Position numbers and translations under genes: made by a program
Shown: piece by piece, positions 4,454 through 58,761 of the stretch
Position numbering within the stretch: the first letter of the stretch is position 1
Layout of the letters: every line of letters starts with the position of its first letter
Source: an uncultured Steroidobacter sp.
GTDB taxonomy: Bacteria > Pseudomonadota > Gammaproteobacteria > Steroidobacterales > Steroidobacteraceae
Reading direction: 5' to 3'
NCBI GenBank assembly: GCA_964457865.1
Contig: CAYWHG010000001.1
Coordinates: 54,193 to 118,192, forward strand
DNA: 64,000 nt
The notes under the pieces: generated by a model
What the model was told of the DNA's origin: nothing
What the model saw: only the letters and a program-made list of their open reading frames with translations
Databases searched by the model: none

Positions 4454-4494
4454 CGATCCAGCCGCTGCACGATTGACATGACGCGGCCGGCGGA

Positions 4495-4525
4495 TGATTA
4501 TGATGTTAAGTATTTATGTTACTGT
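4495..4525 (+). promoter_or_regulatory. AT-rich promoter region of the hpa operon, possible HpaR (MarR) site
   Basis: AT-rich GATTATGATGTTAAGTATTTATGTTA in a GC-rich background just upstream of the first hpa gene. Resemblance to HpaR sites is loose. Confidence 0.35.
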
Positions 4526-4551
4526 GATCTCATAACGTTCCTCGACCGCTC

Positions 4552-4965
4552 ATGCCACACATCCTCATCGAATACTCGGCGAACCTGGAAGACCAGCTGG
4601 ACTTTCCGGCGGTGCTGAAGGCGCTGGGCGATGCGGCGGTCGCCACCGGAGTATTCCCGCTCGGAGGCATTCGCATCCGTGCGTACCCGACGACTCACTA
4701 CCGCATCGCCGATGGTCATCCGGACAACGCATTCATTCACGTGTTGCTGAAGGTGGGGCATGGACGCGAGGCGGCGACGCGCCAGCGTGCGTGCGAGGCG
4801 ATCTTCAGTGTGTTGAGCGAGCATCTCGATGGCGCCTATCAGCGATTGCCGCTCGGTATCTCGCTCGAAATGCAGGAAATCGATCCAGTGCTCACTTTCA
4901 AACGCAACAACCTGCACGACTACGTGAAGCGTCGCCAGGCCGGCGAAGGGGGCGGACATGGGTAG
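4552..4965 (+). CDS. hpaF: 5-carboxymethyl-2-hydroxymuconate delta-isomerase
   Basis: N-terminal MPHILIEYSANL (catalytic Pro), GVFPLGGIRIRA, FKRNNLH; hpa context. Confidence 0.9.
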   Translation: MPHILIEYSANLEDQLDFPAVLKALGDAAVATGVFPLGGIRIRAYPTTHYRIADGHPDNAFIHVLLKVGHGREAATRQRACEAIFSVLSEHLDGAYQRLPLGISLEMQEIDPVLTFKRNNLHDYVKRRQAGEGGGHG

Positions 4966-6487: not shown

Positions 6488-6497
6488 GGGTACGGCA

Positions 6498-8266: not shown

Positions 8267-8816
8267 GGCCAGGAACACTATTCGGAAGAAATCGAAACAG
8301 GCAGATGCGTCGGTCGTTGCGCGCCGCGCGCTGCCGATGCGAGAGTTCTCGCGCTCCCTGCCGATGGCGCTGCTGCGTGCGCGTGAGGCGGTGATGCAGC
8401 GGTTTCGTCCTGCGCTGCGAGATCAGGGTGTCACCGAGCAGCAGTGGCGCATCCTCCGAGCGCTCGCGCACTCCGGTCCCATTGAAGTGACCGCGCTGGC
8501 CGACGCGACGTTCCTGCTGGCGCCGAGTCTGTCGCGCATCCTTCCCGATCTCGAAGCGCGTGGACTGATTGCCCGCAAGCAGCTGGAAAGCGATCGTCGT
8601 CGCGCGCTGGTGAGTCTTCAGCCGCAGGGTTTGAAGCTCATTGCCGCGCACGCACCGGATTCGGAGAGCGTGTACGACCAGATCGCCAGGGCGTTCGGCA
8701 AAGAGCGTCTCGATCACCTGTTTGAGCTGCTCAAGGAACTGGAGAACAGCCTTGAGGTACGCGGCGATACGCAGTCGCAGGTAACGAGGCGCTCACGGGC
8801 CGCTCGCGGGCGCTGA
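8256..8816 (+). CDS. hpaR: MarR-family homoprotocatechuate operon regulator
   Basis: RSLPMALLRAREAVMQRFRPAL, VTEQQWRILRAL and LLAPSLSRIL typical of HpaR. Confidence 0.88.
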   Translation: MKPKARNTIRKKSKQADASVVARRALPMREFSRSLPMALLRAREAVMQRFRPALRDQGVTEQQWRILRALAHSGPIEVTALADATFLLAPSLSRILPDLEARGLIARKQLESDRRRALVSLQPQGLKLIAAHAPDSESVYDQIARAFGKERLDHLFELLKELENSLEVRGDTQSQVTRRSRAARGR

Positions 8817-8834
8817 CAGCAGCAAGGTGGGCGC

Positions 8835-9143
8835 ATGAGTCTCTATCAAGTTCAGAAACTCATCTATCAGTTGAATCGCGATCCGGCTTTGCAGCAGAAG
8901 TTCCGAACCGACCTGTCGGAAGTCCTGACGGGCTATGACCTCAGCGAGGAGGAAAGGCGCGCCATTCGCGAGCCCGACATAGGGCTGCTCTACGTCATGG
9001 GCGTGAACGGTCAGATCCTGATGCACTTTGCGGCGTTCCGTGGTTTCGAATGGAGCGCGTACATCGAGGCCATGCGAGAAGGGGAGCGCAAGCATGGACC
9101 GGTCAGGGTGGGCCTCTACAGCTCCGCGGAGAGCCGGTCATGA
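8835..9143 (+). CDS. Extradiol dioxygenase small (LigA/CarBa-like) subunit
   Basis: MSLYQVQKLIYQLNRD, YDLSEEERRAI and LYVMGVNGQILMHF; overlaps the LigB-type gene. Confidence 0.8.
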   Translation: MSLYQVQKLIYQLNRDPALQQKFRTDLSEVLTGYDLSEEERRAIREPDIGLLYVMGVNGQILMHFAAFRGFEWSAYIEAMREGERKHGPVRVGLYSSAESRS

Positions 9144-9967
9144 GTCTCGTGTTCGCAGGCGTTTGCAGTCATGCGCCCGGGATTACGGGCCGCAAGGATC
9201 GGGCGGATCCCGTACTTCGGGATGGGCTCTATGCCGCCTACGACCGCATGCGGCTTGCGATCGAGGCGCAGCGCCCCGATGCCTTGATCGTGATCGCGGC
9301 CGAGCATTTCGCCAACTTCTTCATGAACAACATGCCTTCGCTCTGCGTGGGGATGGCGGATCACTACGAGGGGCCGATCGAGGACGAAGCCTGGCTCGGC
9401 ATCAGGCGCACACGCGTTCCCGGTGCTCCCGACTTGTCGCGTCAACTCATCACGGAGGTAATGAATAGTGTCGATCTGGCGTATGCGCAGGAATGGAAGT
9501 TCGACCACGGTATCAGCGTGCCGCTGCACTTCCTCACGCCTCGCTACGATCTGCCGGTGATCCCCGTGAACATCAATTGTCAGGGACCGCCCCTGATTCC
9601 GTTGCACCGAGCCTACGAATTCGGTCGCGCGCTGCGCCGTGCTTGCGATCATGTGCCGGAGCGTATTGCGCTCGTCGGCACGGGTGGGATCTCGCACTGG
9701 CCAGCAACGCCGGATTCCGGGCGGATCAACGAGGCATGGGATCGAGAGTTTCTCGACCATTGGCTCAACAATCGCAAGGACGCACTGCTTGCGTACGACG
9801 ACGACGAAACCTGGCGGATCGCCGGTCAGGGTGGCTTCGAGATCAGAACGTACATCTCCGTCTGCGGCGCCACGGAAGGTTCGACCGGTGAACTGTGGTA
9901 CTACGCTCCCATCCCGATCTTTGCGGTGGGCTGCACCGTGGCGGTCATGGACGTGCCCAGCCGCTGA
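9140..9967 (+). CDS. Class III extradiol ring-cleavage dioxygenase large (LigB/CarBb-like) subunit
   Basis: SHAPG, EHFANF, DHGISVPL, GGISHWP and GGFEIR motifs retain the His/His/Glu iron ligands; ATG at 9140. Confidence 0.88.
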   Translation: MSLVFAGVCSHAPGITGRKDRADPVLRDGLYAAYDRMRLAIEAQRPDALIVIAAEHFANFFMNNMPSLCVGMADHYEGPIEDEAWLGIRRTRVPGAPDLSRQLITEVMNSVDLAYAQEWKFDHGISVPLHFLTPRYDLPVIPVNINCQGPPLIPLHRAYEFGRALRRACDHVPERIALVGTGGISHWPATPDSGRINEAWDREFLDHWLNNRKDALLAYDDDETWRIAGQGGFEIRTYISVCGATEGSTGELWYYAPIPIFAVGCTVAVMDVPSR

Positions 9968-14235: not shown

Positions 14236-15126
14236 TCAGAAACGTGCCTGACGATCCTCCGAGACACCGAACTGCTTTTCGAGCGCCTGGACCTCTTCCA
14301 GGCCGAGCAGGGTGAAGAACTCGCGGAAGCTCATCACCTCTTTTGCCAGATTCTTCGCCGTACCTTCGGCTTTTAGCGTGTCCAGTACATTGCTCGCCGC
14401 CTTCACGGCTGCCAGCAACGTGAAGATCGGGTAGATCGCAATCCTGAAGCCCAGGCGTGCAATTTCATCCTTGTGCAGGAAGGGCGTCTTGCCGCTCGAG
14501 GCCATGTTGAAGATGGCGGGGCAGGAGAATGCCTTGGGAATGCGGGCGACCTGCTCCATCTCCGTGGGCGCCTCGACGAAGATTGCATCCGCTCCGGCAT
14601 CCGCATAAATCTTCGCGCGCTTGAGGGCGGCTTCGAATCCTTCCACCGCGAGCGCATCGGTGCGGGCGATGATCATGAAATCCGGGTCCGTGCGTGCCGA
14701 CATGGCCGCGCGGATCTTGGCGACCATTTCATCGGCAGGAACAATGGCCTTGCCGGCGAAATGACCGCAGCGTTTCGGGAGCTGCTGGTCCTCGATGTGG
14801 ATGGCCGCAACGTTTGCCTGTTCGAAGCGGCGCACCGTACGCATGACATTCATGACACCGCCGAATCCATCGTCAGCATCCGAAATCAGCGGCAGACCGG
14901 AGGCAGCGGCAATGCTGTTCGCGTTCTCGGCCATCTCCGTCAGGGTGATCACGCCCGTGTCTGGCTGGCCGAGCCGTACTGCGCATGTGCCTGCGCCCGA
15001 CATGTAGATTGCATCGAAACCCTTCTTCGCAACCAGTCGGGCGGTGACCGCATCCGAAACACCGGGGGCCATCAGAAGATCGCCAGTGGCGAGCAGTTTG
15101 CGCAGTCGGGTGGTGGGTCTTGTCAC
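14236..15126 (-). CDS. Isocitrate lyase/PEP mutase family lyase (methylisocitrate/dimethylmalate lyase-like)
   Basis: DADDGFGG, HIEDQ, PKRCGH and IIARTDA; GTG start overlaps the leuD-like stop. Confidence 0.88.
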   Translation of the reverse strand: MTRPTTRLRKLLATGDLLMAPGVSDAVTARLVAKKGFDAIYMSGAGTCAVRLGQPDTGVITLTEMAENANSIAAASGLPLISDADDGFGGVMNVMRTVRRFEQANVAAIHIEDQQLPKRCGHFAGKAIVPADEMVAKIRAAMSARTDPDFMIIARTDALAVEGFEAALKRAKIYADAGADAIFVEAPTEMEQVARIPKAFSCPAIFNMASSGKTPFLHKDEIARLGFRIAIYPIFTLLAAVKAASNVLDTLKAEGTAKNLAKEVMSFREFFTLLGLEEVQALEKQFGVSEDRQARF

Positions 15127-15635
15127 GGTTTTGCCTTTGCCTTGCTGGGTTCGATCAGTTCGAGCTTTTCCAGCAGCGTGAACACGCCGCCTTCCATCAT
15201 CAGGGAGCGCAGCTCGACGGGGATCGGGGTGATGGGAAGGGTTGCCCCTGTGTCTGTATTGGCTATGGTCCAGTTTTCCAGATCGATGCTGGCGTGCTGA
15301 CCTTCCTTGAACAGATCGTGCACGCCCGGACATTCCATCGCCACGAAACCGAAGTTCACGGCATTGCGGAAGAACAGCCCGTTGAGTGATTCGGCCAGCA
15401 TGCAGGCCAGTCCGACATTCTTGAGCGAGCGCGCCGCCGGGCGGCTCGATCCCATGCCGAAATTTCGCCCGCCGATGAGGATGTCGCCCTGCTGAACTTC
15501 TTTCACCCAGCCGGGCCGGTTCGCCTGAAATACGGCGCGCGCCTGATCTTCCTGGCTGGCGTAAGTCACTTCGCTCGGCACCATCAGATCGGTATTGATG
15601 TTGTCGCCGAACTTCCAGATCTTGCCGCGGATCAT
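15123..15635 (-). CDS. LeuD/DmdB-like hydratase small subunit
   Basis: GKIWKFGDNINTD, GGRNFGMGSSR and FFRNAVNFG; short type. Confidence 0.87.
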   Translation of the reverse strand: MIRGKIWKFGDNINTDLMVPSEVTYASQEDQARAVFQANRPGWVKEVQQGDILIGGRNFGMGSSRPAARSLKNVGLACMLAESLNGLFFRNAVNFGFVAMECPGVHDLFKEGQHASIDLENWTIANTDTGATLPITPIPVELRSLMMEGGVFTLLEKLELIEPSKAKAKP

Positions 15636-16882
15636 TGCAGCGCCCCCGGGTGGGTTATCTTGCCGGCGATCGCTGATGCGGCGACCGTGGCTGGAGATGC
15701 CATGTAGATACGTGCGGAGTTGTCTCCCATTCGTCCCTTGAAGTTGCGTGTGCTCGCCGTGATGCACGTTTCGTTGGGGCCGAGCACACCCATGTGTCCG
15801 CCGTAACAGGCGCCACAGGTGGCGGGAGTGACCACCGCACCGGCCTGAATGAGGGTTTGCAGATAACCGGCATTCGCGGCAGCCTGCATCACGGCTTGTG
15901 AGCTGGGTGTGATGAGGAAGCGCACACCCGTTGCGACATGCCTGCCCGCAACGATGCGCGCCGCCTCGGCGAGATCATCCAGCGTGCCGTTTGCGCAGGA
16001 CCCGATGAATGCCTGGTCGATGCGTACGCCTTCCACTTCCGAGATGGGGCGCGAGTTGTTGATCACCGTGTCGGGCAGTGCAACCAGCGGCTCCAGCGTA
16101 TCGAGTTCGATCGTGCGCCGGGCCCGATACTTTGCATTGGCGTCAGGGGTGACTGGGTTGAACTGCCGGTCCGTGCGCTCCTTCATGTAGTTGAGCAGCC
16201 GGTCGTCGGGCTCGAAGGTCACAAACTCGGCGCTCAGCTCGGCGCCCATCGCGGCGATCGTGCGCCGGGCATTCATGCTCAGTGACTGCATGCCTGGGCC
16301 GCCGTATTCGATGTTCTGGCCCGCGTGTTCGCCAAATTCATTGGCGATGTGCAGGAACAGGTCTTTCGCAGAGACGCCCGGCTGCAACTCGCCGACGAGG
16401 TCATAGCGGACGGTCTCGCCCACCTGGAACCAGGTCTTCCCGGTGGTCAGCGCGTAAATCATGTCGGGGTAGCCGATGCCGCGTGCGGCGGCATTGAAGG
16501 CGCCGCTCGCACAGGTGTGCGAATCGGAGCAGACAAGGACAGATCCGGGCAGGGCATAGCCCCTGTCGGCGACGACCGCATGACTGATGCCCTGATCGGG
16601 ACCAACATCGTGGAAGCGCCTGATCCCGAACTTTCTGACGAACTCGCGGCCGTAGCGATGTGCCTCCGCTGCGGCCTGGTCGGGCGCCGGAACGACGTGG
16701 TCGTAGATCACGGCGACTTTGTCGGGGTCGTGTACCTTGATGACTTCCTTGCGCAGGGTCTTGAAGAAGCTGGTGTCCAGCATCACCACGGTATCGACGT
16801 TGACCACGACGAAGTCGCCGGGACCAACACGGGTTCTGCCGCTGGCGCGCGCGAGGATCGCTTCTGCCATCGTCATGCTCAT
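15632..16882 (-). CDS. LeuC/DmdA-like [4Fe-4S] hydratase large subunit
   Basis: DHVVP, SDSHTC, IGSCANG, CGACYGG and STRNFKGRMG (three Fe-S Cys present). Confidence 0.9.
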   Translation of the reverse strand: MSMTMAEAILARASGRTRVGPGDFVVVNVDTVVMLDTSFFKTLRKEVIKVHDPDKVAVIYDHVVPAPDQAAAEAHRYGREFVRKFGIRRFHDVGPDQGISHAVVADRGYALPGSVLVCSDSHTCASGAFNAAARGIGYPDMIYALTTGKTWFQVGETVRYDLVGELQPGVSAKDLFLHIANEFGEHAGQNIEYGGPGMQSLSMNARRTIAAMGAELSAEFVTFEPDDRLLNYMKERTDRQFNPVTPDANAKYRARRTIELDTLEPLVALPDTVINNSRPISEVEGVRIDQAFIGSCANGTLDDLAEAARIVAGRHVATGVRFLITPSSQAVMQAAANAGYLQTLIQAGAVVTPATCGACYGGHMGVLGPNETCITASTRNFKGRMGDNSARIYMASPATVAASAIAGKITHPGALQ

Positions 16883-18070: not shown

Positions 18071-19243
18071 TCAGTACGAGCGCGGCAGGTCGAGTGCCTT
18101 CTCTGAGATGAAGTTCATGATCATCTGCGGGCTCACGGGCGCGATGCGGGCGATGAAGCATTCGCGCAAATAGCGTTCGACGTGATACTCCTTCGAGTAC
18201 CCCATGCCGCCATGGGTCATCACGGCCGTCTGGCAGGCTTCGTAGGCCGCTTCCGCAGCAAGAAATTTTGCGCTGTTGGCCTCGACGGCGCAGGACTGGT
18301 CGGCGTCGTACTGCGAAGCGGCGTGTTCCATCATCAGTTCAGCTGCTGCGAGGTTCATCCAGCAGCGAGCCAACGGGTGCTGGATACCCTGGTTCTGACC
18401 GATCGGGCGGCCGAACACGTGGCGCTCCGTAGCGTATTGCGAGGCTTTCCGCAAAGCGGCATAGCCGAGCCCGATGGCCTCAGCCGCGATGAGAATGCGC
18501 TCGGGATTGAAGCCATGAAGTATCTGGCGAAAGCCGTTGCCTTCCTGACCGATCAGGTCATCGGCAGGCACACGCCAGTTCTCGAAGAACAGCATGTTCG
18601 AATCGACCGCGTGGCGACCGAGCTTGTCGATCTCGCGTATCTCCACGGCCTGTCGATCCAGCGGCGTGTAGAAAAGGCTCAGGCCGTCAGTGGGCTGTCT
18701 GACCTGATCGATGGGCGTGGTACGCACCAGGATCAAGGCCTTGTGCGCGACCTGCGCCGTCGAAATCCAGATCTTGGATCCTGTCAGCCGATAGCAGTCG
18801 CCGTCGCGCACGGCACGGCTTTGCAGTCGCGCAGTGTCGAGGCCCGAGTTCGCTTCCGTCACGGCAAAACAGGCTTTTTCCCGGCCTGCGATGAGCGGCG
18901 GCAGCATGCGCTGCTTCTGCGCGTCGGTGCCGAACTTCACCACAGGCTGCAGGCCGAAGATGTTCATGTGGACTGCTGAGGCGCCACTCATCCCGGCGCC
19001 GGACTGCGCAATCGTGCGCATCATCACGGCAGCTTCCCGGATGCCGAGACCGGAGCCGCCATACGCCTCCGGCATGGCGATACCCAGCCAGCCGCCGTCG
19101 GCGACGGCGCGGTAGAACTCTTCGGGAAATTCTCCGGAGATGTCGTGGGCTCTCCAGTAGTCGTCGCCAAACTGGCTGCAGAGCTGCTCTATCGGGCCGA
19201 CGATCTCCTGTCGGCGCGAGTTCGTGTGTATTGAATCCAGCAT
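18071..19243 (-). CDS. Acyl-CoA dehydrogenase
   Basis: FAVTEANSGLD, GSKIWIS, RHVFGRPIGQNQGIQ and HGGMGY; start re-assigned to ATG 19243. Confidence 0.92.
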   Translation of the reverse strand: MLDSIHTNSRRQEIVGPIEQLCSQFGDDYWRAHDISGEFPEEFYRAVADGGWLGIAMPEAYGGSGLGIREAAVMMRTIAQSGAGMSGASAVHMNIFGLQPVVKFGTDAQKQRMLPPLIAGREKACFAVTEANSGLDTARLQSRAVRDGDCYRLTGSKIWISTAQVAHKALILVRTTPIDQVRQPTDGLSLFYTPLDRQAVEIREIDKLGRHAVDSNMLFFENWRVPADDLIGQEGNGFRQILHGFNPERILIAAEAIGLGYAALRKASQYATERHVFGRPIGQNQGIQHPLARCWMNLAAAELMMEHAASQYDADQSCAVEANSAKFLAAEAAYEACQTAVMTHGGMGYSKEYHVERYLRECFIARIAPVSPQMIMNFISEKALDLPRSY

Positions 19244-19290
19244 TGGAGGCAAGCCATCGAATAGACGTGTCGTGCGCATTGTAGCACGAC

Positions 19291-19305
19291 GTTCGATAAT
19301 GAGAC
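19291..19305. promoter_or_regulatory. IclR (PcaR/PobR)-like operator next to a minus-strand extended -10
   Basis: GTTCGATAATGAGAC resembles the recalled PcaR-type GTTCGATAATCGCAC. On the minus strand it is followed by GTGCTACAAT, upstream of the acyl-CoA dehydrogenase operon. Confidence 0.5.
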
Positions 19306-19354
19306 ACAAGTGGAGGACGGGCAAAAGTAAGGCGTGGTCCGCGGCCTATACGTG

Positions 19355-19404
19355 TATGAGAATGTCATTCCCATCTTGACAATGCTACGGTTGAGACAGA
19401 TGCT
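19355..19404 (+). promoter_or_regulatory. Operator palindrome plus sigma70-like promoter of the nicD-like gene
   Basis: ATGAGAATGTCATTCCCAT (19356-19374) immediately before TTGACA (19376-19381)-N17-GATGCT. The 32-bp block is duplicated, inverted, at 55023-55054. Confidence 0.8.
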
Positions 19405-19697
19405 TGCGCGAATGTTTCCGGGCGTGCGTAAGTGCGCGATTACTGCCGAATGCCGGGCCACTGACAATCCGGGTGTGGCCTCTTGCTGCAGTTTTGAGTC
19501 GCGCGAGCGCCTTGCTCTTCGCGCAGCTGCTGAAGCAGTGACTGATGTTCGCTGAAGGACTCGGATTTCCTCCACCAAATGCGTCGGCGGTAGTCGCTGG
19601 TCTATCCAGTGGGATCACAGCGAGCGGCGATGGCAACGCACGGACAGCCGGACGATGGTGTTGTCCCAACGGGTTCGCAGCTTGCTGGAGGAAAGTC

Positions 19698-20501
19698 TTG
19701 AAACTCATCAGGTTCATTCACGGCCACACCCTTCGCGCCAACAATATCCGGCAGCACTACCTGCGCTTCGGTGGCGAAGGACATCCGTTGATTCTCATAC
19801 CGGGCATCATGACGCCTGCCCCCATCTGGGATTTCGTCGGCGATCGCCTCGGTGCTGCTTACGATACATACGTCACCGACGTTCGCGGGCGCGGTCTTTC
19901 CGAGACGGGTGATGAACTGGACTACAGCCTGGATGCCTACGCCGACGACGTCGCAGGTCTTGCCGATGCACTCGGATTCAGGAAATACAGCATCGTCGGT
20001 CATTCCATGGGCGCACGCATCGCGCTGCGCACAGCAAGCAAGTACGGCGACCCGATCGATCAGATCGTGATGATCGACCCGCCGGTCAGTGGACCGGGCA
20101 GACGGCGTTATCCTGTCCCGCTGGATCGCGTCGTCGACCGGCTCGCGAAGGCCAGGCGCGGCGAGCTGTGGGAAGCCACCAAGGACGAGCCATTCTGGAG
20201 TGATCACTCCAAACGTGTGCGCGCAGAGTGGACCCATACATGCAATGAAGTCGCGGTGCTCACCACGCATCGCAACTTCCACGAGGAAGACATCTTTCCC
20301 GACTTCAACAAAACGAAAGTCCGCACCTCCCTCATGGTGGCCACGCGAGGCGGCACGATCGAGCAGGCGGACATTGAGGACATCAAGACACGCATGCCGT
20401 CGATCACGGTCGACCACGTCGAGGCAGGACACATGATTCCGTTCGAGAATGAGGACGGTTTCTTCGCCAGCCTGGGTAGATTGCTGGGCACGAAAATCTG
20501 A
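19698..20501 (+). CDS. nicD: N-formylmaleamate deformylase-like alpha/beta hydrolase
   Basis: ANNIRQHYLRFGG, DVRGRGLS, GHSMGAR, DPPVSGPGRRRYP, RAEWTHTC and AGHMIP closely follow recalled P. putida NicD; TTG start after GGAGGA. Confidence 0.85.
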   Translation: MKLIRFIHGHTLRANNIRQHYLRFGGEGHPLILIPGIMTPAPIWDFVGDRLGAAYDTYVTDVRGRGLSETGDELDYSLDAYADDVAGLADALGFRKYSIVGHSMGARIALRTASKYGDPIDQIVMIDPPVSGPGRRRYPVPLDRVVDRLAKARRGELWEATKDEPFWSDHSKRVRAEWTHTCNEVAVLTTHRNFHEEDIFPDFNKTKVRTSLMVATRGGTIEQADIEDIKTRMPSITVDHVEAGHMIPFENEDGFFASLGRLLGTKI

Positions 20502-20521: not shown

Positions 20522-21169
20522 ATGAGCGAGACAGTGAGTTCAATGAATCTTCTTGATTTCAGTGATGCAAGCGATCTGGCATTGCTGGTCTGCGACCTGC
20601 AGAACGACTTCCTGCACCCCGACGGGATATACGCAAAATCGGGCATCGCCGCAGCACACGTCAGCGCGGTCACGCCTCGTGTCCGGCGCGTTGCCGATGC
20701 GGTACGACACGCCGGCGGAGTGGTAGTCGGGACCATGTTTACTCTGGTACCAGGTCGCGCGGGCGAGCCGCTCGTTGCGGCGCATCTCAAGCAGATGCGT
20801 CCCTTCTTGGATGAAGGTCATTTCGCGCCGGGCTCATGGGGTCAGGCAATGCTCGACGAACTGGGCCCCTTCGATGCCACGGTGGAGAAGATTGCCTACT
20901 CGGCCTTCTATCAGACTCGGCTCGAATGGCTTCTGCGCCGGCTTGCGGTCACCCGACTGGCAATTGCGGGTATCGTCACCCAGGGCGGGGTTGCATCAAC
21001 GCTTCGTGATGCGGCTGTCCGCGACTACTCAATCATTCTTCTTGAAGACGGCTGTGCCGCTTTCGACAACTCAATGCATCAGGCGGCCGTAACATCGCTG
21101 AGCGGTGCAGCGACAGTAATGTCCTGTGAGGCGCTTGCGCAGGGCCTTGCAGCCGCCGCCAGAGATTAG
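20522..21169 (+). CDS. Isochorismatase-family hydrolase lacking the nucleophilic Cys
   Basis: CDLQNDF (Asp) and EKIAYSAF (Lys) present, but GIVTQGGVAST has Gly at the usual Cys position. Confidence 0.85.
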   Translation: MSETVSSMNLLDFSDASDLALLVCDLQNDFLHPDGIYAKSGIAAAHVSAVTPRVRRVADAVRHAGGVVVGTMFTLVPGRAGEPLVAAHLKQMRPFLDEGHFAPGSWGQAMLDELGPFDATVEKIAYSAFYQTRLEWLLRRLAVTRLAIAGIVTQGGVASTLRDAAVRDYSIILLEDGCAAFDNSMHQAAVTSLSGAATVMSCEALAQGLAAAARD

Positions 21170-21255
21170 GCGGATTTCGCCGTGCAGTGTTGGCGAACGG
21201 CGAGGATCGAGTAGTTCAGCCATGGGAAGTCGGAAAAAAATGTCCACACGGTTTT

Positions 21256-22122
21256 ATGACTAAACGGAATTCATCGATGGGCAGTGCTCAACTGAGTGTG
21301 GTTCCGACGGACGAGCAGCGGCCAGTCAAACAGACGGCCGTGAGCAAGGCACGTCGCAACGGGCCCCGCTCGGTCACGCGGCTGCTCAATGTGCTGCGGG
21401 TTCTCGCGCTCTCTGAAGAAAGTGTGAGCCTTGCTCAGCTCAGTCTTGCTACGCGGACCCCGAAGACGAGCCTGCTCGCGTTGCTGCGTACGCTTGTCGA
21501 TGCCGGGTATATCGTGCAGCGAGAAGCCGGATACATGCTCGGTGCCGAGGCATTTGCGCTCGGTTCTGTGATCATTGGACAGCGCCGGCTCGCGCAACTG
21601 GCTCGACCAGTGTTGCAGAGACTGGCGGAGCAGAGCGGCGAGACCATCCTGCTCGCTGAACTCTCTGCGGACTCGACTCATGCGATCTACATCGACAAGG
21701 TCGAGAGCACTCGCGCGATTCGCTTCATCGCAAGTGTGGGCGAGCGTCGACCTCTCTATGGCTCGGCCTGTGGTCGCGCCCTTCTTGCCTTCCAGGACGA
21801 CGCATTTCGCAAGAACTATCTCTCCGGGACCAGGTTCATTCCGCTGAATCCGAACAAGAAGATGATGAGTCGCGGCGAGTTGGAGGGCATCATCAAGGAC
21901 ATCCGGAAGAACTCGCTCGCGACGACCAACGAGGATGTGAACGAAGGGGTGGTTGGCTTCGGCTCGCCAATCTTCGGGCGTGATGGCGAGACCGTGGCGG
22001 CGATCGCAATCGGGGCGCCTGTTGTTCGTGGATTGCAGCAGGCCAAGGTGATGTCACGCCTGGTGAAGGACGGCGCCCGGGAGATTTCGCGGACTCTGGG
22101 ATACATCGAGAAGGATGCCTAG
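21256..22122 (+). CDS. IclR-family transcriptional regulator
   Basis: N-terminal HTH (RSVTRLLNVLRVL..LSLATRTPKTSLLALLRTL), SACGRALLA and GFGSPIF..AAIAIGAP; start uncertain. Confidence 0.9.
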   Translation: MTKRNSSMGSAQLSVVPTDEQRPVKQTAVSKARRNGPRSVTRLLNVLRVLALSEESVSLAQLSLATRTPKTSLLALLRTLVDAGYIVQREAGYMLGAEAFALGSVIIGQRRLAQLARPVLQRLAEQSGETILLAELSADSTHAIYIDKVESTRAIRFIASVGERRPLYGSACGRALLAFQDDAFRKNYLSGTRFIPLNPNKKMMSRGELEGIIKDIRKNSLATTNEDVNEGVVGFGSPIFGRDGETVAAIAIGAPVVRGLQQAKVMSRLVKDGAREISRTLGYIEKDA

Positions 22123-34662: not shown

Positions 34663-34689
34663 ATGAGAATATCATTCCGAAAAGAGAAC
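34663..34689. promoter_or_regulatory. Operator between HiPIP/cytochrome (-) and SBP-2 (+)
   Basis: ATGAGAATATCATTCCGAA matches the 19356 site at 16/19 and is followed by a third half-site AAGAGAAC. Confidence 0.6.
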
Positions 34690-50609: not shown

Positions 50610-50636
50610 GATCGCATAGGTGAATGATATTCGCAT
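50610..50636. promoter_or_regulatory. Three-half-site operator between leuB-like (-) and SBP-3 (+)
   Basis: GATCGCAT-AGGTGAAT-GAT-ATTCGCAT; 50618-50636 matches the 19356 site at 15/19 (reverse complement). Confidence 0.6.
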
Positions 50637-53774: not shown

Positions 53775-54971
53775 CTAGAGGTCGACCGACGTGGCGTCGT
53801 AGTTGTAGAGCCAGTCGCGCAGGTCCAGCTGTTTTTCCGATTCCCGGTCGATGTACTGGCTGGCCTTCTGCGGATCTGCGAGATCCGGATGATGCAGCCG
53901 GTGTTGATTCGCCCCGGAGGCCTCCACGATGGAGGTCGTGCGCGGGATTCGCAGTTGCTCGTAACGCTGCAATGCGTGGGGCAGGTCGCTCGCGTACTTC
54001 TGCATGCAGCGAGCCAGCACATAGCCATCTTCGATGGCCATGTTGGCGCCGAAACCGAGATAGGGCAGGGTGGGATGGCATGCATCGCCCAGCAGGGTGA
54101 CCCGTCCACTTGACCAGTGCGGCATCGGCGGCCGCAGAAACAGTGCCCACTTGTAGGGGACATCGATGTTCCGGATCAGGGTCTGGATCTGCTCGTGCCA
54201 GCCGGAGAAATCAGCGCTGATCTCTTCGAGCGTTCCCTTCTCGATCCATGACTCCACCTGCCAGTCGCTGCGTTCGATGTGTCCGACGATATTCACCAGT
54301 TCGCCGCGCCGGATCGGATAGCAGACGAAGTGGCCGTTCGGCGCCATCCAGTTCTGTGTTCCGACCAGACGGTTCTTCTCGGGCAGGCTATCCATCGACA
54401 CGATGCCGCGCCAGGAGATGCAGCCGGTAAATGTCGCCGGTGTCTCGCCGAACAACTGACGGCGGATCCGCGAATGCAGGCCATCGGCGCCGATCAGTGC
54501 GTCGCCAGAGAACGTTCTGCCATCCTCGAGGACGACGGTCGCCGAGCTTTCCGACTGTTCGAAGCCCTTGACCCGCGCACTCAGATGAATCGCGTCGGGC
54601 TTCCTGCTGCGGACGGCCTTCACGAGGATGTCGTGCAGGTCCGCGCGATGAATATAGATGTTCGCGAATCCGTAATGCTCGATGAGGTAGGAGGTCAGGG
54701 TCGGCGTGGAGGCGCGATACCCCGTATTCCACACCAGCATTTCTCTGCCCTGCGGCAGTACCCACACGGACTCGATCTGTTCCTTCAGACCCAGCGCGAA
54801 CAGGACCCGCAGTCCGGTCGGGCTGATCTGAACGCCCGCGCCGACCTCGCGCAGGTTCGCGGTCTGTTCGAACACATCGACATCCATTCCCTTGTCGAGG
54901 CAGGCCAGCGCCGCGGTCAGGCCGCCGATGCCCGCGCCTGCGATCAAGACGTGCTTTTTCCTGGTGCTCAT
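53775..54971 (-). CDS. Group A FAD-dependent monooxygenase (NicC/salicylate hydroxylase family)
   Basis: IAGAGIGGL, GAGVQISP, IGADGLHSRIR and LLGDACHP; start re-assigned to ATG 54971. Confidence 0.9.
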   Translation of the reverse strand: MSTRKKHVLIAGAGIGGLTAALACLDKGMDVDVFEQTANLREVGAGVQISPTGLRVLFALGLKEQIESVWVLPQGREMLVWNTGYRASTPTLTSYLIEHYGFANIYIHRADLHDILVKAVRSRKPDAIHLSARVKGFEQSESSATVVLEDGRTFSGDALIGADGLHSRIRRQLFGETPATFTGCISWRGIVSMDSLPEKNRLVGTQNWMAPNGHFVCYPIRRGELVNIVGHIERSDWQVESWIEKGTLEEISADFSGWHEQIQTLIRNIDVPYKWALFLRPPMPHWSSGRVTLLGDACHPTLPYLGFGANMAIEDGYVLARCMQKYASDLPHALQRYEQLRIPRTTSIVEASGANQHRLHHPDLADPQKASQYIDRESEKQLDLRDWLYNYDATSVDL

Positions 54972-55003
54972 GCCACTTGTCGGATGCCAATGTGAGGGAG
55001 GCA

Positions 55004-55054
55004 AGCATCCGGTGCCCGTGCGAGCATTGTCAAGATGGGAATGTCATTCTCATA
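55004..55054 (-). promoter_or_regulatory. Operator plus promoter of the monooxygenase; near-identical to the nicD promoter
   Basis: ATGGGAATGTCATTCTCAT (55035-55053). On the minus strand TTGACA-N18-GATGCT. 31/32 identity with the reverse complement of 19355-19386. Confidence 0.8.
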
Positions 55055-55121
55055 ACCGTACGCGCTATACTACGGGTCAGTTGGATCTGTCCTCGCAGCC
55101 TGAGCGCGACAGGAGCATTTC

Positions 55122-57521
55122 GTGGCCCACCTCGCATCCTTCGATTCCACAGCGCCGGTCCTCGGCCAGCCCGTTCCGCGCCGCGAGGATGAGCGCCTGC
55201 TGACCGGGCGCGGTCGCTTCGTCGATGACCTGAAGCTGCCGGGGATGGTGCACATGGCGGTGGTGCGCAGTCCCGTGGCGCACGCGCGGATACGCGCAAT
55301 CAATGTTGATGCAGCGCGATCGCTGCCTGGTGTGCTCGCGGTGATCAGTGCGCAGGACCTGGAGGGTCATGCACACCACATGCCCGTCTCGGATACGTGG
55401 GTGATGCCGGGGTACAACCGCTATCTGCAATGGCCGATCGCGCGGGATGTCGTGCGTTTTGTCGGTGAGCCCATCGTGGCGGTGGCGGCGGAAAACCGCA
55501 GCATTGCAGAGGATGCATGCGGCCTGGTCGATATCGACTTCGAAATCCTGGATCCCGTGACCAACATCGATGAGGCATTGACCGACAGGGTGGTGCTGCA
55601 TGAGTCGGCGGGAACGAACCTGGCCTGCCACTATGTCGTCGGACGCGGCGATGCGGACAAGGCATTCGAGAATCCGCACTACACGCGCAAGGAAATATTC
55701 CGCGTTCATCGGCATACCGGGATGGCGCTCGAGACTCGCGGCTACGTCGCGCAGTGGGATCCGCTGGCCAGGAAGATGACCTGCTGGGGGGCGAACAAAC
55801 GGCCGTGGAACACGCGCGATACGCTGGCGTCCATGCTGAAGCTTGAGCGTGAGGACATCACCCTCATCGAGAACGACACGGGGGGCAACTTCGGCACCCG
55901 CGGACATTTCTATCCAGAGAACCTCATGGTGGCGTTCCTCGCGATGCGTCTGGAACGGCCCGTGAAGTATGTTGAAGATCGTCGCGAGAACATGATGGCG
56001 ACGAATCATTCGCGCGAGGTGAGTTGCGAACTGGAGATCGCTGTCGCGAAGAACGGAAGAATCGAAGGTCTGCGCGCGCGCGTCTTCTGCGATCTCGGCG
56101 CCTATTGCACCGGTGGCGGTTCCGCCGTCGTACCGGCAAAGACGGTGCAGTTCATACCTGGCCCGTATCACATCGACAACTACAAGTGCGAACTGAGCGT
56201 GCTCATCACGAACAAGACGCCTGTCGGCGCGTATCGTGGACCGGGGCGCTATGAGGCGGGATTCTGCATCGAGCGGTTGCTCGACATGGTGGCGAAGGAT
56301 CTGGACCTGGATCCGGTCGAGTTGCGCAGGAACAATCTCATTCGCACCGAGCAGATGCCTTACAACGGCGGCGTGCTCGTGCCGTATCTCGGCGAGAGTC
56401 CTTACGACACGGGCGACTATCTGCAGACGTTCAATCGCGCGCTCGAACTGATCGATTACGAAGCCATCAAGGCGAAGTCCGGAAAGCTGATCGACGGCAA
56501 GTTCCACGGGGTCGCCGCGAGTTGCTACGTCGACTCGACCGGCATGGGGCCTTCCGAGGAAGCGCGCATCGTCGTCAATGCGCCCGACGACATCGAGCTG
56601 TATGTCGGAACCTCCGCAAACGGCCAGGGTGTGGAGACCACGATGGCGCAGGTGGCGGCCGACCTGCTCGGCGTTCCCTATGAACTGATCAAGGTGTTTG
56701 CAGGCAGCACCCACTACGTCGAGAACGGCAACGGTCACGGTCATAGCCGTGCGGCGGTGCAGGGCGGCAGTGCGGTGTTCATCGCGACGAACAATCTGAT
56801 TAAGCAGATGCTGGAGGCGGCAGCGCTGCGCTACAACGAACCGGTCGAGCATCTGGAGTACCGTCGCGGCGCCATACATCGCACGACGGATGATGTGCCG
56901 TTGGCCGCATTCGACGATTGCGTGAACGCCATCGTCGGGGAACTGGAGCGTCCTGAGCTGCTGCGCGCGGCAGGCCGCTACGTCAACAGCAAGCTGACCT
57001 ACAGCTACGGAGCGCAGGCAGCCCATGTCACGGTGGATCCGGAGACCTCGATCGTCGAGGTAGTGCGCTTCCTGACGGTCGAAGATGTCGGTCGCGCACT
57101 CAATCCCCTCATCGTTCACGGTCAGTCGATCGGTGCTTCCGTGCAGGGACTGAGCGGCACCTTCCTGGACGAATTTGTCTACGACAGTGCAGGGCAACTG
57201 CTTACAGGCAGCTTTGCCGACTATCTGGTGGCGACGGCCACGGATTTTCCACGGGTCGAAGCCGAGACCTTGCAGAACGCCCCGTCGAAATCGAACCCGC
57301 TGGGCGCCAAGGGTGCAGGCGAAGGCGCCATGTCGACGACCGGGGCCGTGCTCGCAAATGCGGTATCCAATGCATTGGCGTCCCTGAACGTGCAGATCCA
57401 CGATCTGCCGATGTCGCCGAGCAATCTGTCGCGGCTGATCCGCGCGGCCAGGGCAGGGCGTCCGGCGCGGCCGGCGACCGGCGACGATGCGCGATTTGGC
57501 ATACGCCACGAGTCCGTCTGA
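55122..57521 (+). CDS. Xanthine dehydrogenase-family molybdopterin hydroxylase large subunit
   Basis: RREDERLLTGRGRFVDD, GGNFGTRG, AYRGPGR, GQGVET and GAKGAGEG; GTG start after AGGAG. Confidence 0.92.
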   Translation: MAHLASFDSTAPVLGQPVPRREDERLLTGRGRFVDDLKLPGMVHMAVVRSPVAHARIRAINVDAARSLPGVLAVISAQDLEGHAHHMPVSDTWVMPGYNRYLQWPIARDVVRFVGEPIVAVAAENRSIAEDACGLVDIDFEILDPVTNIDEALTDRVVLHESAGTNLACHYVVGRGDADKAFENPHYTRKEIFRVHRHTGMALETRGYVAQWDPLARKMTCWGANKRPWNTRDTLASMLKLEREDITLIENDTGGNFGTRGHFYPENLMVAFLAMRLERPVKYVEDRRENMMATNHSREVSCELEIAVAKNGRIEGLRARVFCDLGAYCTGGGSAVVPAKTVQFIPGPYHIDNYKCELSVLITNKTPVGAYRGPGRYEAGFCIERLLDMVAKDLDLDPVELRRNNLIRTEQMPYNGGVLVPYLGESPYDTGDYLQTFNRALELIDYEAIKAKSGKLIDGKFHGVAASCYVDSTGMGPSEEARIVVNAPDDIELYVGTSANGQGVETTMAQVAADLLGVPYELIKVFAGSTHYVENGNGHGHSRAAVQGGSAVFIATNNLIKQMLEAAALRYNEPVEHLEYRRGAIHRTTDDVPLAAFDDCVNAIVGELERPELLRAAGRYVNSKLTYSYGAQAAHVTVDPETSIVEVVRFLTVEDVGRALNPLIVHGQSIGASVQGLSGTFLDEFVYDSAGQLLTGSFADYLVATATDFPRVEAETLQNAPSKSNPLGAKGAGEGAMSTTGAVLANAVSNALASLNVQIHDLPMSPSNLSRLIRAARAGRPARPATGDDARFGIRHESV

Positions 57522-57571: not shown

Positions 57572-57603
57572 TTGACTCACCAATAACAGAATGTCATTTT
57601 CAT
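57572..57603 (+). promoter_or_regulatory. -35 (TTGACT) and operator upstream of the nicX-like gene
   Basis: AACAGAATGTCATTTTCAT (57585-57603), 15/19 to the 19356 site. Confidence 0.6.
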
Positions 57604-57702: not shown

Positions 57703-58761
57703 ATGATCTTGGCCAACATGATCGATGTGGAAATGCTTCGCGTATTCACCGCAGAGCTTGAACTCTGCAAGGTGAAGCCGGACGAAACGGTTGCCGTGCT
57801 GAGTGCGAGCGGGACGCCGAACGGCTATGCGCAGGCCTTCATGGTTGCGGCGGGCAGTCTTGGTGCCACGACCTTTCACATCGAGGTCCCGGATCATGCG
57901 ACAGCGAATCGGGCGGGTGTGTACGGCAAGACGCCGCTCGCGGGAAATCGCGCAGCCATCGATTCATTGAAGTCGGCAGATCTGGTGATCGATCTGATGG
58001 GGCTGTTGTTCTCGCCGGAGCAGGCGGAAATTCAGAGTGCCGGTACGCGCATTCTGCGAGTCGGCGAACCGATGCATGTCCTCAAGCAGATGTTTCCGAC
58101 TGCGGAGCAGCGGCGTCGCGTCGAGGCGGGCGCCGAGATGATGCGCGCCGCACGGGAACTGCGCGTGACTTCCGAGGCCGGCACCGACGTGCGATACAGG
58201 CTGGGGCAGTATCCGGTCGTTACGCAGTACGGGTACACCGATACGCCGGGCCGCTGGGATCACTTCCCTTCCGCGTTTCTGTTTACGCAGGGCAACGATG
58301 ACGGGGTCGAGGGGACCGTAGTGGTTCAGCCGGGCGACATCCTCTGCGCCTTCAAAAAGTACGTACAGGACCCGGTCCGCCTGACCATCAAGGCGGGACG
58401 CGTCGCCGAGATCGATGGTCCCGGAATGGATGCTGCGTTGCTTCGCGACTACATCACGAGCTTCAACGATCCACGCGCATATGCGATCTCGCATATCGGC
58501 TGGGGGATGCATGAGCGCGCAACGTGGTACCACATGCTCGCGACGACCAGACTGCGTGAGGAGAGAATCATGAATGCGCTCTCCTTCTATGGAAACGTGC
58601 TGTTCTCCACCGGTCCCAACACAGAGGTGGGCGGAACCAACGATACGGCGTGTCACATCGATATTCCGATGCGCAAGTGCAGCCTGTTTCTCGATGGGCG
58701 GCAGATCGTGGCGGCGGGCAAGGTTGTCGTGCCGGAGCTGAAGGCGGCACTCGATTCGTAG
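57703..58761 (+). CDS. nicX: 2,5-dihydroxypyridine 5,6-dioxygenase-like non-heme Fe dioxygenase
   Basis: LGQYP..YGY.D.PGRWDH, SHIGWG, FYGNVLFSTGPNTEVGG and CHIDIP match recalled P. putida NicX; start 57703 or 57718. Confidence 0.87.
   Translation: MILANMIDVEMLRVFTAELELCKVKPDETVAVLSASGTPNGYAQAFMVAAGSLGATTFHIEVPDHATANRAGVYGKTPLAGNRAAIDSLKSADLVIDLMGLLFSPEQAEIQSAGTRILRVGEPMHVLKQMFPTAEQRRRVEAGAEMMRAARELRVTSEAGTDVRYRLGQYPVVTQYGYTDTPGRWDHFPSAFLFTQGNDDGVEGTVVVQPGDILCAFKKYVQDPVRLTIKAGRVAEIDGPGMDAALLRDYITSFNDPRAYAISHIGWGMHERATWYHMLATTRLREERIMNALSFYGNVLFSTGPNTEVGGTNDTACHIDIPMRKCSLFLDGRQIVAAGKVVVPELKAALDS

What the first reader, a model, noticed from the sequence alone, without database searches (positions are those of the whole stretch)
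19355..19404. 32-bp promoter/operator duplicated in inverted form 35 kb away
Seen: 19355-19386 (TATGAGAATGTCATTCCCATCTTGACAATGCT) equals the reverse complement of 55023-55054 at 31/32, differing only at the palindrome centre. Both continue to a GATGCTTGC -10-like element 17 or 18 nt after TTGACA. Both lie in divergent intergenic regions, driving nicD-like and the flavin monooxygenase. Inference: direct evidence that two distant modules form one pathway under one regulator.
Basis: seen in the sequence. Interest (0 to 1): 0.72.

Follow-up and report, generated by a model that had tools for sequence, protein, structure and literature searches.

The report
Shared IclR-type operator-promoter, two copies
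Two nearly identical promoter-plus-operator elements 35 kb apart are real, belong to a five-site local regulon for a nicotinate-like pyridine breakdown pathway, and are most likely bound by the IclR-family regulator in the cluster; this is a sound but fairly ordinary regulon.

Summary
19355-19386(+) and 55023-55054(-) match 31/32 and differ only at the palindrome centre. The match extends to 38 nt at 92%. These are the only two copies in the 5.3-Mb genome, and none was found in 200 genomes of the same family.

The core is a 19-bp palindrome, ATGAGAATGnCATTCCCAT. One base later comes a perfect TTGACA, and a conserved GATGCT follows 17 or 18 nt further on.

Three weaker copies of the palindrome lie in other intergenic regions of the window (34663, 50618, 57585). 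A matrix trained only on the sites of Peristeroidobacter soli ranks these five as the top five of the whole genome.

P. soli has the same gene set with orthologous operators and the same -35 and GATGCT. One metagenome contig (L023) has all the scattered genes as one compact divergent cluster with a single operator: SBP<-NicX<-Mo-hydroxylase | monooxygenase->deformylase->isochorismatase->IclR. This supports the "one pathway, one regulator" reading.

The regulator is most likely the IclR-family protein at 21187-22122, probably acting as a repressor. This rests on association only: no binding data or transcription start sites were available. It is a new member of a known kind, of modest interest.

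The parts
19349..19386 (+). Copy A of the repeated control block (38 nt, 92% to copy B; the 32-mer 19355-19386 matches 31/32)
19356..19374 (.). Operator A: 19-bp palindrome ATGAGAATGTCATTCCCAT (9-1-9, 8 of 9 pairs), centre at 19365
   Evidence: 32-33 bits, joint top hit of the genome
19376..19381 (+). -35 hexamer TTGACA, one base after operator A, pointing at the hydrolase operon
   Evidence: this junction is kept in P. soli and in metagenome contigs L021-L023
19399..19407 (+). GATGCTTGC. GATGCT is the candidate -10, 17 nt after the -35. It is weak by consensus (3/6) but conserved in P. soli A' and B'.
19698..20501 (+). N-formylmaleamate deformylase-like alpha/beta hydrolase (NicD/Nfo-like). 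The likely true start is TTG 19698 behind GGAGGA, not ATG 19545, which leaves a leader of about 290 nt.
   Evidence: 4L0C, E=1e-63
20522..21169 (+). Isochorismatase-family hydrolase, second gene of the operon (in the NicF position, but identity with NicF is not shown)
21187..22122 (+). IclR-family regulator and candidate operator-binding protein. It is third in the operon behind promoter A. The likely start is ATG 21256 or 21277.
18071..19324 (-). Acyl-CoA dehydrogenase, first gene of the divergent operon (followed by CoA-transferase, LeuC/LeuD-like hydratase and an ICL-family lyase, down to 14236)
55023..55060 (-). Copy B of the repeated control block
55035..55053 (.). Operator B: ATGAGAATGACATTCCCAT read on the minus strand, centre at 55044
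55028..55033 (-). -35 hexamer TTGACA pointing at the flavin monooxygenase
55001..55009 (-). GATGCTTGC, 18 nt after the -35; candidate -10 is GATGCT (55004-55009). It is identical in P. soli B'.
53775..54971 (-). Class A flavin monooxygenase of the group that includes NicC
55066..55071 (+). TATACT, candidate -10 of the divergent Mo-hydroxylase promoter. It lies inside the 16-nt block CCGTACGCGCTATACT that is identical in P. soli. This places operator B at about -43 to -25 of that promoter.
   Evidence: inference
55122..57521 (+). Molybdenum hydroxylase large subunit
57585..57603 (.). Third operator, AACAGAATGTCATTTTCAT, 7 nt after a TTGACT, so it overlaps the spacer and -10 of the promoter of the NicX-like gene
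   Evidence: ortholog in P. soli
57703..58761 (+). 2,5-dihydroxypyridine 5,6-dioxygenase (NicX) homolog
   Evidence: 7CN3, E=1e-94; PF26233 on the ortholog
34663..34681 (.). Fourth operator, ATGAGAATATCATTCCGAA, between the HiPIP/triheme cytochrome c operon (-) and the NMT1-type binding protein SBP2 (+)
50618..50636 (.). Fifth and weakest operator, AGGTGAATGATATTCGCAT, between a LeuB-like dehydrogenase (-) and the NMT1-type binding protein SBP3 (+)

Best explanation
Copies A and B are two homologous, functional control elements of one local regulon. Each has a 19-bp palindromic operator (consensus ATGrGAATrnyATTCyCAT) placed one base upstream of a perfect -35 TTGACA, followed by a weak but conserved -10-like GATGCT. 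The operator is most likely bound by the IclR-family regulator encoded at 21187-22122. That gene is third in the operon behind promoter A, so it would regulate itself. Without inducer the regulator probably represses. At A and B it sits against the -35 of the promoters for the deformylase-like hydrolase (NicD/Nfo-like) operon and the monooxygenase. It also sits over the core of the divergent promoters. At the other three sites it overlaps the spacer and -10. Together the five sites switch on a 2,5-dihydroxypyridine (maleamate-type) pathway for an unidentified pyridine compound. That pathway comprises a Mo-hydroxylase, a flavin monooxygenase, NicX, the deformylase, a hydrolase, transport proteins, electron carriers and downstream acid metabolism. 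Copy A is best seen as a copy of the monooxygenase control region that now serves the hydrolase-isochorismatase-IclR genes, because these lie directly behind the monooxygenase in other organisms. Shown here: the repeat, its uniqueness, the five-site motif, cross-species conservation, and gene linkage. Inferred: which protein binds, the sign of regulation, the transcription starts and the inducer.
For: - Repeat and uniqueness.
- Regulon: five intergenic sites in 38 kb. A matrix trained only on five P. soli sites ranks them 1-5 of the whole genome (22.8-32.1 bits; the next hit scores 20.3).
- Footprint: P. soli A' and B' keep the palindrome, CTTGACA and GATGCT while the spacers diverge.
- Junction: the operator-to-(-35) junction is also kept upstream of monooxygenase orthologs in contigs L021, L022 and L023, whose monooxygenases are 67-76% identical.
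- Linkage: L023 has SBP<-NicX<-MoL | FMO->abH->isochorismatase->IclR. All seven are orthologs of window genes (55-73% identity), and there is one operator in the single divergent region.
- Regulator: an IclR-family gene is the only regulator gene called beside the cluster in P. soli and in L023, L025, L026, L027 and L028; the window itself also carries a MarR gene about 11 kb from site A, with no operator near it. In P. soli the IclR ortholog (74%) lies behind its own operator-plus-CTTGAT promoter. In L025 and L026 an operator lies upstream of the IclR gene.
- Pathway identity: NicX at 1e-94, deformylase at 1e-63, a monooxygenase related to NicC.
- Repressor geometry: at 57585 and at P. soli 179714 and 199780 the operator starts 7 nt after TTGACT. 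In L021-L028 a GTCAAG (the -35 of the opposite strand) lies 16-17 nt from the operator, which puts a (C/G)AGAAT -10 inside the operator.
Against:
- GATGCT matches the -10 consensus at only 3 of 6 positions, and the strict scan calls no promoter.
- At A and B the operator centre lies near -46. That position is also typical of IclR-type activators, so the sign of regulation is open.
- Promoter A is about 290 nt from the likely hydrolase start, so a nearer promoter cannot be excluded.
- A paralogous IclR outside the window (G000 C1:147132-147971, 73% identical) has an almost identical DNA-reading helix and could bind the same sites.
- The IclR genes of L025-L028 are only about 27% identical to the window's, although their operators look alike. 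Co-occurrence therefore holds at family level, not ortholog level.
Confidence: 0.7

Rival explanations
1. The element is the same, but the IclR protein acts as an inducer-dependent activator at the A/B-type promoters (operator centred near -46, touching the -35). It may still repress at the sites where the operator overlaps the -10, giving dual function as in PcaU- or PobR-type IclR regulators.
For: The operator-to-(-35) distance is strictly fixed at one base in the window, in P. soli and in L021-L023, which fits a stereospecific contact with RNA polymerase. The -10 is weak, so help in promoter opening could be needed. It is established that the IclR family includes both activators and dual regulators.
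Against: The -35 is a perfect TTGACA, whereas activator-dependent promoters usually have a poor -35. At three of the five window sites, and at the divergent promoters of L021-L028, the operator overlaps the -10 or spacer, which is a repressor layout. The fixed spacing can also be explained by common descent.
Confidence: 0.2
2. The operator is read by another protein: either the paralogous IclR 29 kb beyond the window end, the MarR regulator at 8256-8816, or a global factor.
For: The paralog at G000 C1:147132-147971 has almost the same helix-turn-helix as the window IclR. P. putida nic genes are controlled by a MarR-type NicR (established knowledge), and a MarR gene lies in the window.
Against: No operator lies near the MarR gene. 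No MarR homolog appears in the 111-kb syntenic stretch of P. soli or in contigs L023-L028. The paralog's own neighbourhood has no such operator. A global regulator would have many sites genome-wide, but the five best sites all lie in this cluster.
Confidence: 0.08
3. The 31/32 identity is only a trace of a recent duplication or a short gene-conversion patch and has no regulatory meaning, or it is a chance match.
For: A and B differ at 1 of 32 positions. A versus its ortholog A' differs at 9, and B versus B' at 5. The five spacer bases ATGCT after TTGACA are shared by A and B but are not conserved in any other genome. This points to homogenisation within this genome, on top of any selection.
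Against: Zero matches are expected by chance. The palindrome, the -35 and GATGCT are conserved in orthologous positions in another species, and the palindrome and the hexamer next to it also in distant metagenome contigs, while the flanking DNA diverges. Similarity is confined to the control element, with no trace of duplicated coding DNA in the leader. Conversion may add to the identity but does not replace function.
Confidence: 0.02

Closest known systems
IclR-family regulators with palindromic operators at catabolic promoters (E. coli IclR/AllR/KdgR, PcaU/PobR/PcaR, TtgV, GenR)
   Same: The protein has an N-terminal HTH_IclR and a C-terminal IclR_C domain and matches solved IclR proteins. 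The palindromic operator has GGAAT/ATTCC-type half-sites at or next to the -35/-10. The regulator gene is linked to its targets and is probably autoregulated. From memory, and not tested here, the E. coli IclR box TGGAAATnATTTCCA has a similar outer GGAA...TTCC.
   Different: No curated NCBIfam equivalog is reached; the best, BhcR, scores 127 bits against a cut-off of 350. The operator sequence ATGrGAATrnyATTCyCAT and its target pathway are not those of any characterised member I could find. A full-text search for IclR together with dihydroxypyridine, maleamate, NicX, nicotinate or picolinic terms returned no listed paper that mentions IclR.
nic cluster of Pseudomonas putida KT2440 (NicR, a MarR type, and NicS, a TetR type, controlling the nicAB, nicC and nicXDFE promoters) and the pic/hpa clusters of Alcaligenes faecalis
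   Same: The pathway logic is the same: Mo-hydroxylase, flavin monooxygenase, NicX ring cleavage (1e-94 to 7CN3) and deformylase (1e-63 to 4L0C). One local regulator acts at several promoters through a repeated operator.
   Different: The regulator family is IclR, not MarR or TetR. The genes are scattered over 38 kb in five transcription units. No maleate isomerase (NicE) is present. The isochorismatase-family protein is not clearly NicF. The monooxygenase is not an equivalog of NicC. The substrate is unknown.
Compact orthologous cluster in metagenome contig L023 (Logan SRR27751816)
   Same: It has orthologs of seven window genes (55-73% identity). It has the same operator type, TTGAGAACATCATTCTCAT, followed by CTTGAT.
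   Different: It has one divergent control region for everything. In the window the monooxygenase operon is split, and the hydrolase-isochorismatase-IclR part has its own copy of the control element.

Membership tests
IclR-family regulator with cognate operator | Regulator protein with an N-terminal winged HTH (HTH_IclR) and a C-terminal effector domain (IclR_C) | tested here: met
   PF09339 at 7e-08 and PF01614 at 2e-33; matches to 1MKM, 8EJU and TtgV.
IclR-family regulator with cognate operator | Palindromic operator at or next to the core promoter of the regulated genes | tested here: met
   A 19-bp palindrome lies 1 nt from TTGACA at A and B, and 7 nt after TTGACT at 57585.
IclR-family regulator with cognate operator | Regulator gene genetically linked to the operator-bearing operons across genomes | tested here: met
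   Window, P. soli and L023 carry orthologous IclR genes; L025-L028 carry other IclR subfamilies.
IclR-family regulator with cognate operator | Demonstrated binding of the protein to the operator and release or activation by an effector | not testable with these tools
   This needs EMSA or footprinting and effector screening.
Sigma-70 promoter | -35 hexamer close to TTGACA | tested here: met
   6/6 at A, B, A' and B'.
Sigma-70 promoter | -10 hexamer close to TATAAT, 16-18 nt downstream | tested here: inconclusive
   GATGCT lies at 17 or 18 nt and has A2, T3 and T6 only (3/6). The strict scan finds no promoter. GATGCT is nevertheless conserved in all four Steroidobacter-type copies.
Sigma-70 promoter | Mapped transcription start about 7 nt after the -10 | not testable with these tools
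NicR (MarR)-controlled nic regulon as in P. putida | MarR-type regulator linked to the cluster | tested here: not met
   The only MarR gene (8256-8816) lies in a different gene group (LigB, FAH, DHDPS), has no operator nearby and has no counterpart in P. soli or in the contigs.
NicR (MarR)-controlled nic regulon as in P. putida | NicC, NicX, NicD, NicF and NicE enzymes | tested here: inconclusive
   NicX and NicD homologs are clear. The monooxygenase is in the same group as NicC but is not an equivalog. The isochorismatase is not clearly NicF. No NicE was found in the window.
Dispersed repeat or mobile-element end (REP, MITE, IS inverted repeat) | Many copies per genome, or copies that flank a mobile unit | tested here: not met
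   There are exactly two full copies in 5.3 Mb, and similarity is limited to 38-60 nt.

The most novel reading that the evidence does not exclude
Promoter A arose when an ancestral monooxygenase-deformylase-isochorismatase-IclR operon, as still seen in L023, was split. A copy of its operator-promoter went with the downstream genes. The two copies, 35 kb apart and inverted, are still being homogenised by short-patch gene conversion (1 difference between the copies versus 5-9 to their orthologs). The regulon itself serves an undescribed pyridine substrate. It ends in a LeuCD-like maleate hydratase plus a LeuB-like D-malate dehydrogenase instead of maleate isomerase.
Probability: 0.3. Interest if true: 0.5.

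Novelty: new member of a known kind. Interest (0 to 1): 0.35.

Why it matters
The finding defines an uncharacterised local regulon precisely enough to test it. It gives five operator sites, a candidate IclR regulator and a set of about 20 genes for the breakdown of an unknown pyridine compound, in Steroidobacter-type soil bacteria, one of which (P. soli JW-3) is cultured. It adds an IclR-controlled version to the known MarR- and TetR-controlled 2,5-dihydroxypyridine pathways. It also gives a clean example of an operon that was split and kept co-regulated through a copy of its control element. It does not reveal a new principle of regulation.

Tried and rejected
- Sigma-54 promoter: by hand, GGCAC...TTGC in copy B is 2 nt too far apart, and copy A lacks GGCAC. 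Rejected.
- Fur, CRP or FNR-type global sites: the half-sites do not align, and the best genome-wide hits are confined to this cluster. Rejected.
- Remnant of a duplicated monooxygenase gene in the 290-nt leader of the hydrolase: blastn, tblastx and blastx find only the control element itself. Rejected.
- Riboswitch or known RNA in the leader: no Rfam match at E<=1.
- Palindrome near-matches at 14841 and 63742: these lie inside paralogous ICL-family coding genes at a conserved protein motif and are not operators.
- A second palindrome type, CGAACGnCGTTCG, seen upstream of a TonB receptor in P. soli: not enriched in the window.
- Operator near the paralogous IclR and the second Mo-hydroxylase/NicX cluster outside the window: none found.
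- Strict pattern search in 200 genomes of the same family: no hit. The IclR ortholog occurs in only 3 of 58 genomes of the genus, so the cluster is accessory.

Full report
**1. Observation**

Reading both sites directly confirms the finding. TATGAGAATGTCATTCCCATCTTGACAATGCT lies at 19355-19386(+). The same 32-mer, with A instead of T at position 11, lies at 55023-55054(-). The differing base is the centre of GAATGnCATTC.

- The repeat finder extends the pair to 38 nt (19349-19386 / 55023-55060, 92%). It is the strongest inverted pair of the window.
- A 32-mer search with up to 3 mismatches gives only these two hits, against zero in 100 shuffles.
- In the whole assembly (5.34 Mb, 376 contigs, 63% G+C) the 24-nt core occurs only here.
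- It is absent from 200 other genomes of the same family at up to 2 mismatches.
- GATGCTTGC follows TTGACA after 17 nt in A and after 18 nt in B.

**2. Anatomy**

The palindrome is longer than the 11 bp first noted. ATGAGAATG-n-CATTCCCAT is a 9-1-9 inverted repeat with 8 of 9 pairs (19356-19374; 55035-55053).

- One base separates it from a perfect -35 hexamer: TTGACA at 19376-19381(+) and 55028-55033(-).
- GATGCT at 19399-19404 and 55004-55009 is the only candidate -10 at the correct distance.
- GATGCT has A2, T3 and T6 but matches TATAAT at only 3 of 6 positions. The strict consensus scan therefore reports no promoter in either region. Its support is conservation, not consensus strength.

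**3. Genes** (Pfam, NCBIfam and PDB searches)

- Site A separates two units. On the minus strand is an operon of acyl-CoA dehydrogenase, family III CoA-transferase, LeuC/LeuD-like hydratase and an ICL/PEP-mutase-family lyase (19324 down to 14236). On the plus strand are an alpha/beta hydrolase, an isochorismatase-family hydrolase (20522-21169) and an IclR-family regulator (21187-22122).
- The hydrolase matches the solved N-formylmaleamate-type deformylase 4L0C at E=1e-63, so 'nicD-like' is correct.
- Orthologs are 267 aa long, and a TTG at 19698 is preceded by GGAGGA. The real start is therefore probably 19698, not 19545. This leaves a leader of about 290 nt, which has no Rfam match and no remnant of the monooxygenase gene.
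- Site B separates a class A flavin monooxygenase (53775-54971, minus) from a molybdenum hydroxylase large subunit (55122-57521, plus). The monooxygenase's nearest solved relatives are decarboxylating hydroxylases, including 6-hydroxynicotinate 3-monooxygenase.
- After the Mo-hydroxylase comes a clear NicX homolog (57703-58761; 7CN3 at E=1e-94).

**4. More than two sites**

A one-mismatch search for the 11-mer and a position weight matrix reveal three more intergenic copies:

| Position | Sequence | Location |
|---|---|---|
| 34663-34681 | ATGAGAATATCATTCCGAA | between a HiPIP/triheme cytochrome c operon and an NMT1-type binding protein |
| 50618-50636 | AGGTGAATGATATTCGCAT | between a LeuB-like dehydrogenase and another NMT1-type binding protein |
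| 57585-57603 | AACAGAATGTCATTTTCAT | 7 nt after a TTGACT, just upstream of the NicX-like gene |

Two further near-matches (14841, 63742) lie inside paralogous ICL-family coding genes and are not operators.

To avoid circularity I trained a matrix on the five sites of another species only (section 5). It ranks the five window sites as numbers 1-5 of the whole genome, at 22.8-32.1 bits; the next hit scores 20.3.

**5. Conservation**

A search with the IclR protein found Peristeroidobacter soli JW-3 (NZ_RYEV01000011.1) and one Steroidobacter MAG. Only 3 of 58 genomes of the genus carry the regulator, so the cluster is accessory.

P. soli has orthologs of almost all the cluster genes over about 90 kb and orthologous operators:

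- A': ATGGGAATGATATTCGGAT-CTTGACA-N18-GATGCT, between the acyl-CoA dehydrogenase and the hydrolase.
- B': ATGGGAATGTCATTCTCAT-CTTGACA-N18-GATGCTTGC, between the monooxygenase (88% identical) and the Mo-hydroxylase.
- One site before the NicX-like gene.
- One site before the HiPIP operon.
- One A/B-type element (19-mer followed by CTTGAT) pointing at the IclR ortholog (74% identical), which there is divergent from SBP2.

Alignments show that the palindrome, CTTGACAA, GATGCT and a short upstream TACGG are invariant, while the spacers and flanks diverge. B and B' also share CCGTACGCGCTATACT on the other side of the operator. TATACT (55066-55071) is a good -10 for the Mo-hydroxylase promoter and would place the operator at about -43 to -25 of that promoter.

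**6. Linkage in other organisms**

Homologs of the monooxygenase were traced to metagenome contigs.

- L023 carries SBP<-NicX<-Mo-hydroxylase | monooxygenase->hydrolase->isochorismatase->IclR. All seven genes are orthologs of window genes (55-73% identity).
- L023 has one operator, TTGAGAACATCATTCTCAT followed by CTTGAT, in its single divergent region.
- So the genes that lie at 19-22 kb, 34-36 kb and 54-59 kb of the window form one unit elsewhere. This is the strongest support for the 'one pathway, one regulator' inference.
- L021 and L022 keep the junction of the 19-mer with CTTGAC.
- L025-L028 carry AAyAGAAynnnATTCTGTT-type palindromes before the monooxygenase; in L025 and L026 one also lies before the local IclR gene, and in L027 one lies between the IclR and Mo-hydroxylase genes.
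- In L021-L023, L025, L026 and L028 a GTCAAG (GTCAAA in L028) lies 16-17 nt beyond the operator. Read on the other strand it is a -35, whose -10, (C/G)AGAAT, lies inside the operator. This is a classical repressor layout.

**7. Which regulator**

In P. soli and in contigs L023 and L025-L028, an IclR-family gene is the only regulator gene called next to the cluster.

- The MarR gene at 8256-8816 belongs to a separate LigB/FAH gene group. It has no operator nearby and no counterpart in P. soli or in the contigs.
- Caveat 1: the IclR genes of L025/L026/L028 and of L027 belong to other subfamilies, about 27% identical to the window's. Co-occurrence is therefore at family level.
- Caveat 2: a paralog just outside the window (G000 C1:147132-147971, 73% identical) has a nearly identical helix-turn-helix. 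Its own neighbourhood, which holds a second Mo-hydroxylase/NicX cluster, lacks the operator.

**8. Mechanism**

Most likely this is an inducer-released IclR repressor acting at five promoters and regulating its own gene.

- At 57585, 34663 and 50618 the operator overlaps the spacer and -10 of plausible promoters.
- At A and B it abuts the -35 of the hydrolase and monooxygenase promoters, spanning about -55 to -37, and covers the core of the divergent promoters.
- An activator or dual role at A and B cannot be excluded. The operator-to-(-35) spacing is strictly fixed and the -10 is weak.

**9. Origin of the 31/32 identity**

- A and B differ at 1 of 32 positions. A versus A' differs at 9, B versus B' at 5, and A' versus B' at 6.
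- The shared ATGCT after TTGACA is not conserved in any other genome.
- So, beyond selection on the operator and -35, the two copies in this genome have probably been homogenised by short-patch gene conversion, or P. soli has diverged at both of its copies.
- In other organisms the hydrolase genes follow the monooxygenase directly. Copy A is therefore best read as a copy of the monooxygenase control region that accompanied an operon split. This split predates the divergence from P. soli.

**10. Comparison and verdict**

- The pathway logic matches the nic, pic and hpa clusters: Mo-hydroxylase, flavin monooxygenase, NicX and a deformylase.
- The regulator differs: it is IclR-type rather than MarR or TetR. 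No maleate isomerase is present, and the substrate is unknown.
- A library search for IclR together with dihydroxypyridine, maleamate, NicX, nicotinate or picolinic terms returned no listed paper that mentions IclR.
- A repeated operator that marks a local regulon is a well-known kind of feature. The finding is confirmed and its interpretation supported. It is a new member of a known kind and of modest interest.

Noticed in passing
window 34663-34681, 50618-50636, 57585-57603: Three further copies of the palindrome lie in other intergenic regions, before the HiPIP/cytochrome c operon, SBP3/LeuB-like and the NicX-like gene. With A and B they are the five best matrix hits of the whole genome.
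   Followed up: yes
window 19387-19697: The deformylase-like hydrolase probably starts at TTG 19698 (GGAGGA 5 nt upstream), not at ATG 19545. This leaves an unexplained leader of about 290 nt (about 340 nt in P. soli) that is poorly conserved, has no Rfam hit, and carries only a weak terminator-like hairpin at 19474-19490.
   Followed up: partly
G000 C1:130110-138561 and C1:147132-147971 (12-30 kb beyond the window end): A second, paralogous cluster lies here: Mo-hydroxylase large subunit, NicX, FAD_binding_5 medium subunit, Fer2 small subunit and an isochorismatase. An IclR paralog (73% identical, almost identical HTH) lies nearby. None of them has the operator. The window itself has no medium or small Mo-hydroxylase subunit genes.
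   Followed up: partly
L013/L014 (P. soli G201:C10:217954-227658): P. soli also has a second paralogous set of Mo-hydroxylase, NicX, SBP and monooxygenase genes (60-74% identical to the window proteins) without the operator motif.
   Followed up: partly
window 15123-16882 and 49334-50605: A LeuC/LeuD-like hydratase sits in the operon divergent from site A, and a stand-alone LeuB-like dehydrogenase lies next to operator 50618. No maleate isomerase is present. This would fit maleate hydratase plus D-malate dehydrogenase as the end of the pathway, but that is my inference from knowledge of these enzyme families and was not tested.
   Followed up: no
L021, L022, L023, L025, L026, L028 (about 16-17 nt after each 19-mer): A conserved GTCAAG/GTCAAA lies at a fixed distance from the operator. 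Read on the other strand it is a -35 whose -10, (C/G)AGAAT, lies inside the operator. The two divergent promoters therefore overlap face to face. The Steroidobacter-type copies A and B lack this element.
   Followed up: partly
window 19349-19354 and 55055-55060, and the equivalent positions in L010, L011, L012, L022 and L023: A short motif, CGTrCGn(n)yT (for example GTACGG or GTGCGC), is conserved 2-9 nt upstream of the 19-mer in most A/B-type promoters. Its role is unknown; it could be an extended regulator contact or part of the divergent promoter.
   Followed up: no
window 2109-9967: A separate aromatic ring-cleavage gene group lies here: two FAH-family hydrolases, an MFS transporter, an aldehyde dehydrogenase, a DHDPS-family protein, a MarR regulator at 8256-8816 and a LigB-type dioxygenase. 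None carries the operator.
   Followed up: no
window 14841-14851 and 63742-63752: One-mismatch copies of GAATGnCATTC fall at the same conserved protein motif of two paralogous ICL/PEP-mutase-family genes. They are coding coincidences, not operators.
   Followed up: yes
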